Positions 6,001 through 12,000 of a DNA stretch of 47,837 nucleotides are shown here, piece after piece. The position numbers were made by a program. Within the stretch, counting starts at the first letter, position 1, and every line of letters begins with the position of its first letter. Source of the DNA: a virus (Duplodnaviria; Heunggongvirae; Uroviricota; Caudoviricetes); the IMG/VR virus record IMGVR_UViG_2713896798_000007; one strand, given 5' to 3'.

Positions 6001-9000
6001 GTGAAGCATTCTTTCTATAGTTTTGCTTTCTTCAACGTCTTTTTTGCAAAGGTGGTAAGCACATTTTATTTTCTTAGTCGTCACCATGACTCCGCCTTTA
6101 CAGGTAAACCATCACGACCGAGGAAGACTTTAATCATGCAGTCAGTAATGCATGTTTTTGTAGTTAGGCTACGAATATAAAGTTTTCGCTTTTTAATATT
6201 GTTTGCCGAGGCAATATATGTCCGGCCTTCATGAAGAACATAATCGCCAGGAGTCACGCACTGGCGTGGTATTTCATCGGTTCCGAAGTGATGAGCAATC
6301 ATAATTATCTCCTTAATAAATTTGTCGTATTAAGAAAATTCCAGAAAACTATTTAATACTCAGCAACTGCTCGACGGTCATGTTTTTAATTGCGCTTCGG
6401 TTTACAAGAGTCCAGCCCTGTTTCTCCAGATAAAGGCGGAAAGTGTCTAGGGTACAGACGAGAGCGTCATCAGGAACGGTTTCAGTGAATTCGACGTTGC
6501 CGAATTTGTCGAAGCGAACAACCAGAGTGCGCCCATCGCCCGGAATGATTTTGTTTGTGGGAGTGGTATTATTCTGGCGTAGTTCTGCTTCCATGCGGTC
6601 GAACTCAGCGATGTAGGCCTCTTTGAATGCAGCGGCTTTTTTGCCAGTGAAGCCCATCACCAGGAAAACGAAGCCGTTTTTGGTGATCTGGTAGGCATTA
6701 TAGGAATTGCCGCGATGTTCGAATTTAACCCGCGAAAAGTTGCTGGTTAAAAAATATTCAGAGCATTCGAGGGATTCTATTTTTTGGACAACATGATGAT
6801 GTTGCTTGCCAAAAAACTCTGCGATCGCAATGGATGTAGTTACAGCGCGACCGTTTTCGATGGTTACGTCAGGGTGAGAAAGGGTAGGGATAGTAGTCAT
6901 AATGACAGCCTCGATAGTCAGTTTAAATAACTCACCACCAAGGTTTTCCACGACCATAAGGGTGGTGAGACGTACAGGGGTGGAAATACCGGCGACTACC
7001 GAAACCGGCCAGCTTTGCGGCTGCCCTGCACGCCCCACCATAATCTGAATGTGGCTGTGCATTACGCATAAAAAAACCGCCTGAGCGCGGTTATGCGCGG
7101 TAATCATCATCGGGTTTCCACGCCCGGCACCCGTTTTATAAGGTGCAGGTGCACTATAATTCCACCCGTTCTGGTTTTCAATAGCTACATTCAACATTTT
7201 CTCTCACCTTTCATCACCGAAGTGAACTTTGTTGATGCGGTGCCTGGTGCCTCCAGGTGACGTTAACCAGTTAACAATTAACGCCGGATATTTCACCCAT
7301 AACTCTGCTACGAAGGACAATAGCTTTTTAACTGTTCCGCGTGCGCTTAGCCGCATTCACCGCATCACAAAATTCACTTTAAAAAGGGCGGACATCAGTC
7401 GAACTTCAAGAAAAAACTGATGCCGCCAAGACTACACACAGCAGTGTTGTTATTCACAACCGGAGGCGCACTCCCACCATTTAAATTTGACAGACAAGAC
7501 CGACTCTTTATGGATACCGGAAATGCGCCTTCGTGTTATGCCCGGTTTTATTTCACCACCTCCGGGCTTTGGTGGCCTCGGCTATACCTCTACAGCGAGA
7601 ATATTGAATTAATCCAATAAATGGATTAGCTGGTATTTTTGGCAAGCCAGCGACGTGCGCCTGTTTCAGTTTTAAATGTTTTGCTTTTGGTATACGTCAT
7701 GGCGGTGAACGTTCCATCCTGGTTGGGGAACACGCCACACACTAGGGATTCGTTGTTGCCGAGGTCGATTTTTTGCATTTTGCGAATCTCACATCTTGTT
7801 GCTGCATATAGCGGCTTCTGCCTGCCAGAGATCCCAGTCGTTGCTGCGTAGAGCCTGTACAGCTTGGCTGTAAGTGATACCGCAACAATCCATCAAATAC
7901 TGAACTACTTCGTAATGCACCATTTTATCTCTCCCTTTAACGCCGGGTGGCGGAACTAAAACCTACAGCGCCGTGCTGCTTCTGTAATAATATTAGTTAT
8001 GTTCATATTAATGATCAACACAAATATGCATTTCGTTGATAAAAATGTACTATCCTAATGAAATTTTTAGTGTTTTTTTGATAAAAAGTAAGGCGGGGGC
8101 GGGCGGAGGGGACAAAAAAACCGCCAAAAATGGCGGTTTAGTTACGAGATGGTGGGAGCTATTTCTTCATGCGTTTTTGAGCTGCCAGCATATTTTCAAA
8201 TGCTTCTTTGTAGAGTTCATTCTGACCTTTAAGTCTTTCGATTAGTTTTGCTTTTTCTGATTCGGGAAGGATATCAAAAAGATCTAGTAAATCAGCTTGT
8301 TGCTTGTTAACCATCCGCCAACCTTCGCCTTCGAAACTTTCGTCATAAGTTCCTGAGGAACGGACGTAATTCATCAGATCAGCTAAATCAGGCCTCAACT
8401 CTTCAGGCTTAACTCTTAGTAATACAGCGAATTTTAATGCCGCATCAGTATTAAGTGGAGCCTTTCCGTTGAGATAATGGCTAACCGCAGATTGCGCCTC
8501 AAAACCCATTAGCTCGGCAGCAAGCTCCTGAGTCAGTTTGAGCTCTCTTTTTTTTGCATCCCAGATTGCGCGCAGACGTTGCGTAGCTTCCGGCGATGCG
8601 ATTTCTTCGCGTTTTCTTCTCATACCACCATCTTATGAATACAGTTCATAATCTCAAACTGATATAGGTATTGATCATTTAAATTAGTATGGTTAATATT
8701 TTTGTGAGCATTACTAAGGTGACCATTATGACATTAGATGAATATTTGAAAAAAAATCGTGTACGACAGTCTTGTTTGGCCGCGCTGGCTGGTTGTTCGC
8801 AATCAATGATTAGCCTCGTTGCTACTGGACGTAGTCAGTTAAGCCCTGAAAAGGTATTGCGTATCGCAGAGGCTACGAATTTCGAGGTTACACCTCATGA
8901 ACTCCGGCCTGATATCTACCCTAATCCGACCGATGGTTTACCTGTTGGATGTAAGGCTAACACGCAAAATGCACAGGAGTTGATTCATGAAAATCAGGCA

Positions 9001-12000
9001 TGAGCACATCGAATCAGTGTTGTTAGCCCTGGCAGCCGAAAAAGGGCAGGCGTGGGTCGCTAACGCAATTACTGAAGAATATCTGCGCCAGGGGGGCGGC
9101 GAATTGCCCCTGGTACCAGGCAAGGACTGGAACAATCAGCAGAATATCTATCACCGTTGGTTGAAAGGTGAAACGAAAGCGCAAAGGGAAAAAATTCAGA
9201 AACTGATCCCTGCGGTTCTGGCAATTATTCCGCGCGAGCTGCGTCACCGACTCTGCATCTTCGATACCCTGGAACGCCGTGCATTACTGGCGGCGCAGGA
9301 AGCGTTGAGTACGGCAATTGATGCGCATGATGATGCAGTCCAGGCCGTTTACCGGAAAGCGCATTTCAGCGGCGGCGGGTCTTCCGAAGATTCTGTCATT
9401 GTTCATTAAGCAAAAGTTTCCATGCTGTTTGTGCTTATTCTAAGCCACCGGGCAGCATCATACGGGGCAATTATGGCCGCATTACCATACATGCAACTGT
9501 ACATAGCTGATTACTTGGCTGACACCATGCATTTGTCAGCAGAGGAGCATGGTGCGTATTTGTTGCTGATGTTCAATTACTGGCAAACAGGAAAGCCAAT
9601 ACCTAAAAACAGACTGGCAAAAATTGCCCGTCTGACTAACGAGCGATGGGCTGATGTTGAACCATCCTTGCAGGAGTTTTTTTGCGATAACGGCGAGGAA
9701 TGGGTGCATCTTCGGATTGAGGAAGATCTGGCATCAGTCAGGGAAAAATTAACCAAAAAATCAGCCGCAGGAAAAGCATCTGTTCAGGCCAGAAGAAGCA
9801 GAAAGGAAGCAGATGTTCAAAAAAAACAAGAGAGAAATTTAACAGGTGTTCAAACAGATGTTGAAGTGGTGTTTGAACATGATGTCAACACAAAGGCAAC
9901 TAATAAAGATACAGATAAAGATCTAAAAACAGATCCCCCCCTAAATCCCCCCCGGGGGAATCGAGGTGTCAAAAAGTTTGACCCTCTGGATATTGCTTTG
10001 CCGAACTGGATTTCTGTCTCGCTTTGGCGTGAGTGGGTTGAATTTCGCCAGGCATTGCGTAAACCGATTCGAACGGAGCAGGGCGCTAACGGGGCGATAC
10101 GGGAGCTGGAAAAATTCCGCCAGCAGGGTTTTTCACCTGAGCAGGTGATTCGACACAGCATCGCCAATGAATACCAGGGCTTGTTCGCGCCGAAAGGTGT
10201 TCGACCTGAGACGTTACTCCGACAGGTTAACACCGTTTCGCTACCGGATAGTGCGATCCCGCCAGGCTTCAGGGGGTAACAGACCATGAAAAATATTGCG
10301 ACAGGCGGCGTTCTGGAGCGTATCCGCAGACTGACCCCACCACATGTAACCGCCCCATTCAGAACGGTTGCGGAGTGGCGTGAGTGGCAACTTGCTGAAG
10401 GACAGAAACGTTGCGAGGAGATCAACCGCCTGAATCGTCAGTTGCGGGTGGAAAAAATTCTGAATCGCTCTGGCATCCAGCCGTTGCACCGTAAATGCTC
10501 GTTTGCGAATTACCAGGTGCAGAACGACGGCCAGCGATACGCGTTAAGCCAGGCGAAATCCATCGCCGATGAACTGATGACCGGGTGTACAAATTTTTCG
10601 TTCAGCGGAAAACCTGGTACCGGGAAGAATCACTTAGCGGCAGCTATCGGGAATCGCCTGCTGAAAGACGGTCAGACAGTGATTGTGGTTACCGTGGCTG
10701 ATGTTATGAGCGCCCTGCACGCCAGCTATGACGACGGGCAGTCAGGCGAAAAATTTTTGCGGGAGCTGTGCGAAGTGGAGCTGCTGGTTCTTGATGAAAT
10801 TGGCATTCAGCGCGAGACGAAAAACGAGCAGGTGGTGCTGCATCAGATTGTTGATCGCCGGACAGCGTCGATGCGCAGCGTGGGGATGCTGACAAACCTG
10901 AACTATGAGGCCATGAAAACATTGCTCGGTGAGCGGATTATGGATCGCATGACCATGAACGGCGGGCGATGGGTGAATTTTAACTGGGAGAGCTGGCGTC
11001 CGAATGTTGGTCAGCCAGGAATTGCGAAGTAATTTTTGTTGGAGGACGTTTTAATGGAAACTGTATTTGACGCACTGAAAGCAATGGGAAAAGCCACGTC
11101 GGTAGAACTGGCTGCGCGACTTGATATCAGTCGTGAAGAGGCTGTCAACGAGCTGTGGGAACTCAAAAGAAATGGCGTCGTTGATAAAACTGGTCACACC
11201 TGGTTTCTGGCTGGCGAAGGTGAATCCCGGGTAACCGAAGAGCGGCCAGTAAAATCTGAAGCACAGGATATGCTGACCGGGGAGGTCGAACAAAAAGTTA
11301 CCGCAGACATGATGATTGAGTTTATCGGTCAGGATGGGGCTAAAACGTGTGAGGAACTGGCGGGTAAGTTCGGTGTCAGTACTCGCAAGGTTGCTTCCAC
11401 GCTGGCGGTGGTAACCGCAACGGGGCGGCTGGCACGCGTTAATCAGAACGGTAAATTTCGTTACTGCATGCCGGGCGATAATTTACCAGCAGAGCCGAAA
11501 GCCGCGCTGGTAACGGAAAGTGATGGTAAGGCCTTTCCTCAGCCAGCAGGTGCTGCGTTACCAGTCCGGGAAGCCGCAACACAGGAAGAAATTAAAACAG
11601 AAACTGTGGCGGACATTGTGCAGCCGTTGCCATCGTTTACCGAAACGCAAGCAGATGAGCTGATTTTTCCGTCCCTTCGCAGGGCAAACCTGGCGCTGCG
11701 CAGGGCGAAAAGTGATGTTCAGAAGTGGGAGCGAGTCTGCGCCGCGCTGCGGGAGCTGAACAAGCACCGGGATATTGTTCGACAGATTACTGATTCTTCC
11801 CGCCGTGTTGTATCGGAAAAGTGATTGCCGGAGGCGCTTATGGCAAAAGTATTTACACCAGAAGAGCGGGAAGAAGTGAAGGCGCGCATTGTGGAATTCG
11901 TGCGCCTGAGCGGACGAGAAACTTTTCGACAACTGGCAGATAAAACGGGTGTCAGTAAGACCGCTATTCGTTGTTTATCTGGTGCGCTTGCGGCCAGTGG

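What the first reader, a model, noticed from the sequence alone, without database searches (positions are those of the whole stretch)
8113..9409. Rac-type immunity switch with an operator palindrome
The RacR repressor is divergent from ydaS-ydaT, with a perfect inverted repeat TTATGAA-N5-TTCATAA at 8633-8651 between them. In Rac, loss of RacR is lethal because YdaS and YdaT are toxic, so this switch is both an immunity region and an addiction-like module. The sieB position is taken by a Rha-family gene.
Basis: partly seen in the sequence, partly recalled or inferred. Interest (0 to 1): 0.4.

Follow-up and report, generated by a model that had tools for sequence, protein, structure and literature searches.

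The report
Prophage immunity switch, not RacR type
This is the ordinary lysis/lysogeny control region of a lambda-like prophage at the Rac site, but its repressor is not RacR: a swapped-in cassette encodes a short lambda-CI-like repressor, and the reported palindrome is probably one of its operator sites.

Summary
The inverted repeat TTATGAA-N5-TTCATAA is exactly at 8633-8651, between a leftward 154-aa repressor gene (8159-8623) and rightward ydaS-like (8728-9003) and ydaT (8987-9409) genes. The repressor is not RacR. It shows no similarity to K-12 RacR, and RacR operator motifs are absent. Its N-terminal domain is homologous to the lambda CI DNA-binding domain. Its short helical C-terminus resembles DicA and has no S24 peptidase. 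YdaT is 96% identical to K-12 YdaT, but the YdaS-like protein is only 42% identical over 50 residues. A ~1-kb immunity cassette (7960-8980) has replaced racR-ydaS in a Rac-type backbone, and 75 of 5426 complete E. coli genomes carry it.

Alone, the palindrome is near chance: 12% of shuffles of the 104-bp spacer contain one. Comparison with related loci supports function. A 19-bp dyad (WTATKA-N7-TMATAW) recurs at three fixed positions. Its half-sites are invariant while its centres vary.

The palindrome lies between the -35 and -10 of the predicted repressor promoter, so it is probably the OR3-like site, not the site that silences ydaS-ydaT. This is an ordinary lambdoid switch, a new member of a known kind. 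No binding or promoter activity was tested.

The parts
7960..8980 (.). Swapped immunity cassette: the stretch that differs from K-12 Rac, flanked by near-identical Rac backbone
   Evidence: Three-way DNA alignment. Identity with K-12 Rac ends after ...GGCGGAACTAA (7959) and resumes at TGATTCATGAAAATCA (8981). The full cassette is present in 75 of 5426 complete E. coli genomes.
7990..8008 (.). OL1-like operator ATATTAGTTATGTTCATAT, covering the -10 and spacer of the predicted PL
   Evidence: One of only two exact matches to WTATKA-N7-TMATAW in the 47.8-kb window. An equivalent site sits 590-645 bp downstream of the repressor start in L004, L005, L074, L075 and L077-79. It lies within a 42-nt inverted repeat, 7986-8027 versus 8662-8703.
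7990..8018 (-). Predicted PL promoter: -35 TTGATC (8018-8013), 17-bp spacer, -10 TAATAT (7995-7990), reading towards ydaG and ydaF
   Evidence: Read from the sequence. The hexamers and spacing are the same as at PR. It scores 8/12 to consensus, below the scan tool's 9/12 threshold. Inferred, not mapped.
8009..8042 (.). Candidate weaker OL sites: 8009-8027 (abuts OL1 and covers the PL -35) and 8024-8042, each with 2 mismatches
   Evidence: Abutting paired sites with 0-1 mismatch occur in L074 and L075. Low confidence.
8118..8139 (-). Intrinsic terminator after the repressor gene
   Evidence: 9-bp stem with 5 GC pairs, followed by a T run.
8159..8623 (-). Immunity repressor, 154 aa: lambda-CI-type N-terminal DNA-binding domain plus a DicA-like two-helix C-terminus, with no peptidase. 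It is not RacR.
   Evidence: No similarity to RacR. Pfam HTH_3 only. PDB lambda CI N-terminal domain matches, E 6e-9 to 4e-7. AlphaFold model (pLDDT 79) matches lambda CI N-terminal domain structures at TM 0.74-0.82. C-terminus matches the DicA model and DicA itself. Family of ~153-aa proteins in Enterobacterales.
8630..8657 (-). Predicted PRM-like promoter of the repressor gene: -35 TTGAGA (8657-8652), 16-bp spacer, -10 TAAGAT (8635-8630). The predicted start is near 8623, which would give a leaderless mRNA.
   Evidence: Promoter scan, 9/12. The -10 is TAAAAT or TAAGAT at the same place in all related loci, and no conserved Shine-Dalgarno sequence precedes the ATG. Inferred, not mapped.
8633..8651 (.). 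The reported palindrome: repressor-proximal (OR3-like) operator TTATGA-ATACAGT-TCATAA
   Evidence: A matching site lies exactly 10 bp from the repressor ATG in every locus whose repressor is at least 78% identical. Half-sites 0/12 variable versus centre 6/7 variable.
8662..8680 (.). Candidate weak OR2-like site (3 mismatches) covering the PR -35
   Evidence: Read from the sequence. It is the mirror of 8009-8027 within the 42-nt inverted repeat. Low confidence.
8671..8699 (+). Predicted PR promoter for ydaS-like and ydaT: -35 TTGATC (8671-8676), 17-bp spacer, -10 TAATAT (8694-8699)
   Evidence: Conserved in all related loci, including phage Rac-SA53. A Shine-Dalgarno sequence AAGGTGA (8716-8722) precedes the ATG at 8728. 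Scores 8/12 to consensus. Inferred.
8681..8699 (.). OR1-like operator AAATTAGTATGGTTAATAT, overlapping the PR spacer and -10
   Evidence: One mismatch to the dyad pattern. A matching site lies 58 bp from the repressor ATG in all related loci. It is 48 bp centre-to-centre from the palindrome, and the repeat tool finds the two sites as direct repeats in L077 and L074.
8728..9003 (+). Cro-like regulator, 91 aa, YdaS family
   Evidence: Pfam YdaS_toxin, 40.6 bits against a cutoff of 30. PDB 'Cro' entries 8c7k and 8co2, E~1e-6. PHROG 35 transcriptional repressor. 42% identity over 50 residues to K-12 YdaS. No similarity to DicC.
8980..8997 (.). YdaT-box TTGATT-CATGAA-AATCAG, spanning the ydaT start codon and lying on the right-hand mosaic junction
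   Evidence: 1 mismatch to TTGATT-N6-AATCAA. The K-12 equivalent, ATGATTCATGAAAATCAA, was DNase I-footprinted (PMC11879457), as was the CP-933P site (PMC9986795). The box is conserved in most related loci.
8987..9409 (+). YdaT, 140 aa, the CII-like activator
   Evidence: 96% identical to K-12 YdaT. Pfam YdaT_toxin. PDB 3c4r and 8bt1. PHROG 163 'CII-like transcriptional activator'.

Best explanation
The region is the immunity (lysis/lysogeny) switch of a lambdoid prophage built on the Rac backbone, but it has a different immunity specificity from K-12 Rac. A cassette of about 1 kb (7960-8980) carries four things:
- a short CI-like repressor, with a lambda-CI-type DNA-binding domain and a DicA-like helical C-terminus that lacks a self-cleaving peptidase;
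- its operators;
- the divergent PRM-like and PR promoters, plus PL;
- the DNA-binding part of a Cro-like YdaS-family protein.

Inferred mechanism, by analogy with lambda and with the tested CP-933P PaaR2/YdaS/YdaT switch:
- Repressor dimers bind 19-bp dyad operators (WTATKA-N7-TMATAW) at PR (8681-8699) and PL (7990-8008). This silences ydaS-like, ydaT and the replication genes on the right, and ydaG, ydaF, Rha, kil and recET on the left.
- The reported palindrome (8633-8651) is the repressor-proximal site. It fills the spacer and overlaps the -10 of the repressor's own promoter. It would therefore mediate negative autoregulation by excess repressor, or shut-off of repressor synthesis by the Cro-like protein, as OR3 does in lambda.
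- YdaT, shared almost unchanged with K-12 Rac, binds the YdaT-box across its own start codon (8980-8997). There it would boost leftward transcription of the repressor gene during establishment, as CII does.
- With no S24 peptidase domain, induction is expected to need an antirepressor or some other route, not RecA-stimulated self-cleavage.

Shown here: gene identities, the cassette swap, the repeated and conserved sites and their positions. Inferred: which protein binds which site, the promoter start points and the induction route.
For: Identity of the proteins:
- No similarity between the repressor and RacR.
- Its N-terminal domain is homologous to the lambda CI N-terminal domain, by sequence and by predicted fold.
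- Its C-terminus matches DicA. Pfam finds no peptidase domain.
- The Cro-like gene passes the Pfam YdaS gathering score and matches PDB Cro entries.
- YdaT is 96% identical to K-12 YdaT.

Cassette swap:
- The alignment with K-12 Rac and Rac-SA53 shows sharp boundaries at 7959/7960 and 8980/8981.
- The same cassette sits in a ttcA-adjacent Rac-type prophage in other strains.
- It is present in 75 of 5426 complete E. coli genomes.

Operators:
- The only two exact matches to the 19-bp dyad in the whole window flank the repressor gene, inside the predicted promoters. With up to 1 mismatch there are 6 matches against 0.6 expected.
- Sites occur at the same offsets (+10 and +58 from the repressor ATG, and about 600-640 bp downstream) in seven loci whose repressors are 78-92% identical.
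- The repeat tool independently finds the OR and OL blocks as a 42-nt inverted repeat in the window. In L077 and L074 it finds direct repeats 48 bp apart.
- Half-sites are 0/24 variable while centres are 9/14 variable (p=1.2e-5).
- More distant family members have different recognition-helix residues. They keep the architecture but with different half-sites, for example TTATTC.

YdaT-box: present at the ydaT ATG, matching footprinted sites in K-12 Rac and CP-933P (PMC11879457, PMC9986795).

Functional precedent:
- PaaR2, YdaS and YdaT act as CI, Cro and CII analogs, with palindromic operators over PRM, PR and PL (PMC8630535).
- Short CI-like repressors of about 150 aa are inactivated by antirepressors in Gifsy prophages (PMC3121763).
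Against: - No binding, transcription or immunity experiment exists for this cassette.
- The palindrome alone is at chance level.
- The degenerate operator pattern was derived after looking at these same loci, so the pattern statistics are partly circular. The compared loci are homologous, not independent.
- The right half of the PR site coincides with the -10 hexamer, which would be conserved anyway.
- PR and PL match the sigma-70 consensus at only 8/12 and were not reported by the promoter scan.
- No convincing middle (OR2) site was found.
- The half-site centres are 13 bp apart, more than in lambda operators.
- No LexA box or clear antirepressor control was found near the region, so the induction route is open.
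Confidence: 0.75

Rival explanations
1. This is the RacR/YdaS/YdaT module of Rac. RacR binds the palindrome to hold down two toxic proteins, which makes the locus an addiction-like toxin-repressor module.
For: Divergent repressor/ydaS/ydaT layout. YdaT is 96% identical to K-12 YdaT. Expression of K-12 YdaT is toxic, and K-12 racR cannot be deleted (PMC5700373, PMC5700377, PMC11879457).
Against: The repressor has no similarity to RacR. The RacR operator motif is absent. YdaS is only 42% identical over 50 residues. YdaS and YdaT act as Cro and CII analogs, not dedicated toxins (PMC5917428, PMC8630535, PMC11879457). The prophage carries lysis and morphogenesis genes, so lethality on derepression needs no special toxin. 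The palindrome overlies the repressor's own promoter, not the ydaS promoter.
Confidence: 0.05
2. The palindrome is a chance feature of an AT-rich spacer and binds nothing. Regulation runs only through the other sites.
For: 12% of shuffles of the 104-bp spacer contain an equally good repeat, and the window holds 91 such repeats. In relatives with 78-84% identical repressors the right arm is TAATAT, so the perfect symmetry is specific to this lineage.
Against: The outer 12 bp are invariant in six sequences whose centre varies at 6 of 7 positions. A site matching the same dyad pattern sits exactly 10 bp from the repressor start in all related loci. In L077 and L074 the site is a near-copy of the PR and PL sites.
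Confidence: 0.1
3. The palindrome is mainly the high-affinity site of the Cro-like YdaS-family protein, which turns off repressor synthesis on induction. The repressor itself binds it weakly or not at all.
For: Its position over the PRM-like promoter. In CP-933P, YdaS occupies PRM at low concentration and PR only at higher concentration (PMC8630535). In lambda, Cro prefers OR3 (established knowledge). The most symmetric site is the one nearest the repressor gene.
Against: In lambda-type switches both proteins use the same operators. The half-sites here are shared with the PR and PL sites. Nothing in the sequence separates the two proteins' preferences.
Confidence: 0.25
4. The repeat acts as an RNA hairpin in the leader of a longer leftward transcript, for example one started from a YdaT-activated promoter inside ydaS. 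The hairpin would modulate repressor translation just upstream of the start codon.
For: It lies 10-28 nt upstream of the repressor ATG. A candidate leftward promoter exists at 8752-8725. The T-to-C change of the seventh arm base in relatives would still allow a G-U pair in the leftward RNA.
Against: The stem would be 7 weak pairs, six A-U and one G-C. In L074-L079 the arms cannot pair well (4 of 6), yet the site is kept. The same motif recurs at PR and PL, where no hairpin role applies.
Confidence: 0.04

Closest known systems
K-12 Rac immunity region (racR / ydaS-ydaT)
   Same: Same prophage backbone and gene order. The window has int, a RalA sRNA hit at 1557-1735, recT, recE, kilR, ydaF and ydaG, then ydaT, ydaU and ydaV on the far side. 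YdaT is 96% identical. A YdaT-box lies across the ydaT start codon. The repressor gene is divergent from the Cro-like gene.
   Different: The repressor is unrelated in sequence. PMC9638921 describes RacR as having two HTH domains and WTAGGC-N3-GCCTAW operators, which are absent here. YdaS is only distantly related. The prophage here still has late genes, whereas K-12 Rac is defective.
CP-933P (Sp12) switch of E. coli O157:H7: PaaR2 / YdaS / YdaT (PMC8630535, PMC9986795)
   Same: A CI-like repressor lacking the peptidase motif, divergent from YdaS (Cro analog) and YdaT (CII analog). Palindromic operators overlap PRM, PR and a distant PL. YdaT binds a TTGATT-N6-AATCAA box. This is the best experimental model for how the window's switch should work.
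   Different: There is no paaA2-parE2 toxin-antitoxin pair downstream of the repressor here; a terminator follows directly. The operator sequence differs: the published half-site consensus is GTTTAGTAA, against WTATKA here.
Lambda cI / cro / cII with OR and OL
   Same: The repressor's N-terminal domain is homologous to that of lambda CI, at 35-42% identity in structural alignments. The site spacing is like OR1-OR3: 48 bp here, about 47 bp in lambda from my own knowledge. An inverted OL/PL copy lies beyond the repressor gene. The repressor mRNA is predicted to be leaderless.
   Different: No S24 peptidase or oligomerisation domain. The operators are 19 bp, not 17 bp. The Cro and CII roles are filled by unrelated YdaS and YdaT families. 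No clear OR2.
Short CI-like repressors: DicA (Qin), GfoR/GtgR (Gifsy) (PMC3121763)
   Same: Size of about 135-155 aa, an HTH N-terminal domain related to CI, and no cleavage motif. The C-terminal 50 residues are 30% identical to DicA.
   Different: The whole-protein score against the DicA model is 35.6 bits, far below its 101-bit cutoff. The partner Cro-like protein is unrelated to DicC. No LexA-controlled antirepressor was identified here.
Escherichia phage Rac-SA53 (KU052037), whose repressor is annotated 'dicA'
   Same: Full-length Rac-type phage with the same repressor family (69.5% identity) and the same PR hexamers and layout. The 3' part of its cro gene and its YdaT-box are nearly identical to the window's.
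   Different: Its recognition helix differs (QGTVSQ against QSAVSH). Its repressor-proximal site is TTATTT-N7-CAATAT rather than the palindrome. It is probably a different immunity specificity.

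Membership tests
RacR (repressor of K-12 Rac) | Sequence homology to RacR (158 aa) | tested here: not met
   BLASTP against K-12 RacR: best segment 7 residues, E=4.5.
RacR (repressor of K-12 Rac) | Operators WTAGGC-N3-GCCTAW in the repressor-ydaS spacer (PMC9638921) | tested here: not met
   No match with up to 2 mismatches anywhere in 7900-9000. Only 2 matches in the whole window, against 3.9 expected.
RacR (repressor of K-12 Rac) | Divergent from ydaS-ydaT in a Rac-site prophage | tested here: met
   Gene order. The identical cassette lies next to ttcA-intR in strain 2014C-4423.
Lambda CI / LexA-type self-cleaving repressors | CI-type N-terminal HTH domain | tested here: met
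   PDB 3kz3, 1lmb and 1rio, E 6e-9 to 6e-8, residues 12-82. Foldseek TM 0.74-0.82.
Lambda CI / LexA-type self-cleaving repressors | C-terminal S24 peptidase domain with Ser-Lys dyad and a cleavage site | tested here: not met
   Pfam finds only HTH_3 and HTH_31. The protein is 154 aa, and the model shows two helices after residue 107.
Short CI-like repressors (DicA / GfoR-GtgR / PaaR2 type) | About 135-155 aa, an HTH N-terminal domain and a short non-catalytic C-terminus | tested here: met
Short CI-like repressors (DicA / GfoR-GtgR / PaaR2 type) | Membership of the DicA family proper (NCBIfam PRK09706) | tested here: not met
   35.6 bits against a cutoff of 101. Only the C-terminal 50 residues align.
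Short CI-like repressors (DicA / GfoR-GtgR / PaaR2 type) | Inactivation by an antirepressor rather than by cleavage | not testable with these tools
   Candidate antirepressor-like genes exist (Rha at 6349-7197, Ant-like at 24186-24755), but no link to the repressor was shown.
YdaS family (Pfam PF15943), Cro analog | Passes the family gathering score and is the first gene rightward from the repressor | tested here: met
   40.6 bits against a cutoff of 30. PDB Cro entries match. It is not an ortholog of K-12 YdaS.
YdaT family (Pfam PF06254), CII analog | Homology to YdaT, plus a TTGATT-N6-AATCAA box at its start codon | tested here: met
   96% identity to K-12 YdaT. PDB 8bt1 and 3c4r. Box at 8980-8997 with 1 mismatch.
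Type II toxin-antitoxin / addiction module | A dedicated toxin neutralised by a cognate antitoxin protein | not testable with these tools
   All three proteins are DNA-binding regulators by homology. The literature treats YdaS and YdaT as regulators (PMC5917428, PMC8630535, PMC11879457).

The most novel reading that the evidence does not exclude
Rac-family prophages may exchange the repressor/operator/Cro-N-terminus cassette while keeping one shared CII-like YdaT. The YdaT binding box sits exactly on the recombination junction (8980/8981). If so, heteroimmune Rac-type prophages would keep separate immunities, yet each one's YdaT could promote establishment of the other. YdaT might also drive int-xis through a second conserved box at 1504-1521.

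In this E. coli/Salmonella lineage the repressor-proximal operator has also changed its right half from TAATAT to TCATAA. That makes it a perfect dyad and may retune the switch, through tighter autorepression or Cro-first binding.
Probability: 0.2. Interest if true: 0.4.

Novelty: new member of a known kind. Interest (0 to 1): 0.25.

Why it matters
It corrects an annotation-by-position error. K-12 findings on RacR (its operators, its essentiality and its cross-talk with the C protein of a restriction-modification system) cannot be carried over to this prophage. The cassette was found in 75 of 5426 complete E. coli genomes, including Shiga-toxin-producing serotypes such as O157:H7, O121, O111 and O45.

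It also gives a concrete, testable operator and promoter map for a so-far uncharacterised short CI-like repressor family. It shows that the CII-like YdaT and its box are shared across immunity types. Beyond that, it is a textbook lambdoid immunity mosaic.

Tried and rejected
- RacR homology and the RacR operator motif: both absent.
- DicC as the Cro partner: no similarity.
- Palindrome significance by shuffling: not significant on its own.
- Searching the window with the strict 7-N5-7 palindrome and up to 3 mismatches gave no enrichment: 3 matches against 1.5 expected. The operator family became visible only after comparing related loci.
- OR2: the best candidate, 8662-8680, has 3 mismatches. 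No conserved middle site was established.
- A second YdaT half-box at 8789-8806 (2 mismatches) is seen only in near-identical E. coli cassettes (L005 has a divergent 2-mismatch site at the same offset), so it was dropped.
- Canonical LexA boxes (CTGT-N8-ACAG): the four hits all lie far from the immunity region and from the antirepressor-like genes.
- Fold search for the C-terminal helices: no specific match beyond the N-terminal domain.
It was rerun without that sequence.
- Jobling 2016 (PMC4957749) on full-length Rac-like prophages is not held.

Full report
**What is in the sequence**

- The window is a lambda-like prophage on the Rac backbone. It has:
  - an integrase at 1-1236, and RecT and RecE at 1985-5459;
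  - kilR and ydaE;
  - a Rha-family ORF at 6349-7197;
  - ydaF at 7626-7778 and ydaG at 7789-7923;
  - the region in question;
  - ydaU, ydaV, Q, lysis genes, terminase, portal, tape measure and the tail-tip protein J.
- Rfam also finds the Rac RalA sRNA at 1557-1735.
- Within the reported span there are four features:
  - a minus-strand terminator at 8118-8139;
  - a minus-strand 154-aa HTH ORF at 8159-8623;
  - a 104-bp spacer with 29% GC;
  - plus-strand ORFs at 8728-9003 (91 aa) and 8987-9409 (140 aa).
- The inverted repeat TTATGAA-TACAG-TTCATAA is exactly at 8633-8651.

**Is the repressor RacR? No**

- BLASTP against K-12 RacR (b1356) finds nothing (E=4.5).
- The published RacR operator, WTAGGC-N3-GCCTAW (PMC9638921), has no match with up to 2 mismatches in the region.
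- Residues 12-82 are homologous to the lambda CI N-terminal domain (PDB 3kz3, 1lmb, 1rio; E 6e-9 to 6e-8).
- An AlphaFold model (mean pLDDT 79) superposes on lambda CI N-terminal domain structures at TM 0.74-0.82 and 35-42% identity.
- After a poorly predicted linker come two helices (107-118 and 121-153). They align with the C-terminus of DicA at 30% identity over 50 residues.
- Pfam finds no S24 peptidase domain.
- The protein belongs to a compact family of about 153-aa proteins in Escherichia, Salmonella, Hafnia, Enterobacter, Citrobacter, Yersinia and other genera. RefSeq calls it only 'helix-turn-helix domain-containing protein'.

**The rightward genes**

- The 140-aa protein is 96% identical to K-12 YdaT.
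- The 91-aa protein passes the Pfam YdaS threshold and matches PDB entries named Cro. It is only 42% identical to K-12 YdaS over 50 residues, and it is unrelated to DicC.

**A swapped cassette**

- Aligned with K-12 Rac, the window is near-identical up to 7959, just past the ydaG start. Identity resumes at 8981, just before the ydaT start. The stretch between is unalignable.
- So the repressor, its flanking control DNA and almost all of the Cro-like gene were exchanged as a block.
- Against phage Rac-SA53 (repressor 69.5% identical, annotated 'dicA'), there is a further junction inside the cro gene. The 3' halves are nearly identical, while the HTH-coding 5' halves differ.
- The full cassette occurs in 75 of 5426 complete E. 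coli genomes at 93.7-100% identity. In one of them it sits in a prophage next to ttcA, the Rac attachment site.

**Is the palindrome more than chance?**

- Alone, no. The window holds 91 perfect 7-bp-arm inverted repeats with 0-10 bp spacers. 12% of shuffles of the 104-bp spacer contain one.
- Comparison changes the picture. I collected related loci:
  - repressors 92% identical (Salmonella and a soil metagenome-assembled genome, L004 and L005);
  - 83-84% identical (L074-76);
  - 78% identical (Hafnia, L077-79);
  - three diverged E. coli cassettes (L081-83).
- In the six E. coli and Salmonella versions, the outer six bases of each arm never change, while six of the seven central bases do (0/12 against 6/7, p=2.6e-4).
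- The seventh arm base is T or C, so the constrained element is TTATGA-N7-TCATAA.
- In the 78-84% loci the left half is kept but the right half is TAATAT.
  - There the site is a near-copy of a second site 48 bp away, which overlaps the -10 of the rightward promoter.
  - It is also a near-copy of a third, inverted site beyond the repressor gene. The repeat tool found all of these without any pattern from me.
- These comparisons give a degenerate dyad, WTATKA-N7-TMATAW.
  - In the whole 47.8-kb window it has two exact matches: the palindrome and 7990-8008.
  - With one mismatch it has six matches against 0.6 expected, including 8681-8699.
  - In every related locus, sites lie 10 bp and 58 bp from the repressor start codon and about 600-640 bp downstream of it.
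- The window's own OL and OR blocks form a 42-nt inverted repeat, 7986-8027 against 8662-8703.
- Caveats:
  - the pattern was derived after the fact from these homologous loci;
  - the right half of the 8681-8699 site is also the -10 hexamer.

**Promoters (inferred)**

- Rightward PR: TTGATC (8671-8676), 17 bp, TAATAT (8694-8699). A Shine-Dalgarno sequence at 8716-8722 and the ATG at 8728 follow.
- Leftward PL beyond the repressor gene: the same hexamers and spacing (8018-8013 and 7995-7990).
  - Both promoters are conserved in relatives, including Rac-SA53.
  - Both score only 8/12 to consensus, so the scan tool missed them.
- Repressor promoter: the scan found TTGAGA (8657-8652), 16 bp, TAAGAT (8635-8630).
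  - Relatives keep TAAAAT or TAAGAT at this position and lack a conserved Shine-Dalgarno sequence.
  - The predicted start is near 8623, the A of the ATG. That would make the mRNA leaderless, as for lambda cI from PRM (my own knowledge) and for the strongest racR promoter (PMC9638921).
- The palindrome fills this promoter's spacer and overlaps its -10 by 3 bp. It is therefore placed like OR3. It would control repressor synthesis, not ydaS-ydaT directly. The site over PR (8681-8699) is the one placed to silence ydaS-ydaT.

**YdaT-box**

- TTGATTCATGAAAATCAG at 8980-8997 spans the ydaT ATG and sits on the right-hand mosaic junction.
- The K-12 equivalent was footprinted and is needed for YdaT to activate a reverse promoter that raises repressor expression (PMC11879457).
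- CP-933P YdaT binds TTGATT-N6-AATCAA (PMC9986795).
- The box is conserved across immunity types.

**How it most likely works**

- Shown: the parts, their homologies, the cassette swap, and the repeated and conserved sites.
- Inferred: the short CI-like repressor binds the PR and PL operators to maintain lysogeny.
- The palindrome provides autoregulation or Cro-mediated shut-off of the repressor promoter.
- The YdaS-like protein is the Cro analog using the same sites.
- YdaT is the CII analog.
- This follows the tested CP-933P switch, in which PaaR2, YdaS and YdaT behave in this way and palindromes overlap PRM, PR and PL (PMC8630535).
- Because the repressor lacks a peptidase, RecA-driven self-cleavage is unlikely.
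  - Short CI-like repressors of Gifsy prophages are inactivated by antirepressors (PMC3121763).
  - I found antirepressor-like genes in the window, but no LexA box and no demonstrated link to the repressor.

**The addiction idea**

- Toxicity of YdaS and YdaT, and the essentiality of racR, were shown in K-12, where Rac is defective (PMC5700373, PMC5700377).
- Later work and Jobling's letter treat them as regulators (PMC5917428, PMC11879457).
- Here the prophage has replication, kil, lysis and morphogenesis genes, although an IS66 element sits in the late region. Lethality on repressor loss is therefore expected and would not show a dedicated addiction function.

**Verdict**

- The operator guess is probably right but incomplete and mis-assigned.
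- The protein name is wrong.
- The system is an ordinary lambdoid immunity mosaic: a new, uncharacterised member of the short CI-like repressor / YdaS / YdaT kind.

Noticed in passing
window 6958-7045 (-) and 7070-7146 (-), inside ORF 6349-7197: Rfam C4 antisense RNA (73 bits) and isrK (63 bits) hits lie inside the 5' third of the 282-aa ORF that RefSeq annotates whole as 'Rha family phage regulatory protein'. Pfam calls that part of the ORF 'Phage_ASH'. The Rha domain starts only at about residue 110, and it matches PHROG anti-repressor families. This looks like a P1 immI-type unit, a c4-like RNA upstream of an antirepressor-like gene, in the leftward early operon. The annotated start codon may be wrong.
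   Followed up: partly
window 16308-16506 (+): A second set of the same RNA families lies just after the Q-like gene (15614-16288): c4-a1b1 target, isrK and C4. STnc100 (17427-17620), AgvB (17621-17682, minus strand) and a tRNA (17281-17340) follow further downstream.
   Followed up: no
window 1504-1521; also L002 3504-3521 (K-12 Rac): A second YdaT-box-like repeat, TTGATTATTAATAATCAG, has 1 mismatch to TTGATT-N6-AATCAA. It lies about 50 bp upstream of the xis start codon and is identical in K-12 Rac. It could be a CII/PI-like site for YdaT-driven xis-int expression. It is not among the YdaT sites reported in PMC11879457.
   Followed up: partly
window 20304-22919: An IS66-family element (HTH transposase ORF, TnpB_IS66, DDE_Tnp_IS66) is inserted upstream of the lysozyme gene (23382-23915). 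It may affect late-gene expression.
   Followed up: no
window 24186-24755: A 189-aa protein has the P22 antirepressor N-terminal domain (PHROG 524 'anti-repressor Ant'). It covers only positions 7-210 of the 317-position profile. It lies between the lysozyme and Rz lysis genes. It is a possible, perhaps truncated, antirepressor, which is relevant because the immunity repressor has no peptidase domain.
   Followed up: partly
window 13170-13344: An Rfam sok antitoxin RNA hit (108 bits), which implies a hok/sok-type type I toxin-antitoxin locus in the region downstream of the replication genes.
   Followed up: no
window 8850-8980, compared with L003 (phage Rac-SA53): A mosaic junction lies inside the cro-like gene. 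The 3' half is nearly identical between the window and Rac-SA53, while the 5' HTH-coding half differs. So the DNA-recognition part of Cro travels with the repressor and operators.
   Followed up: partly
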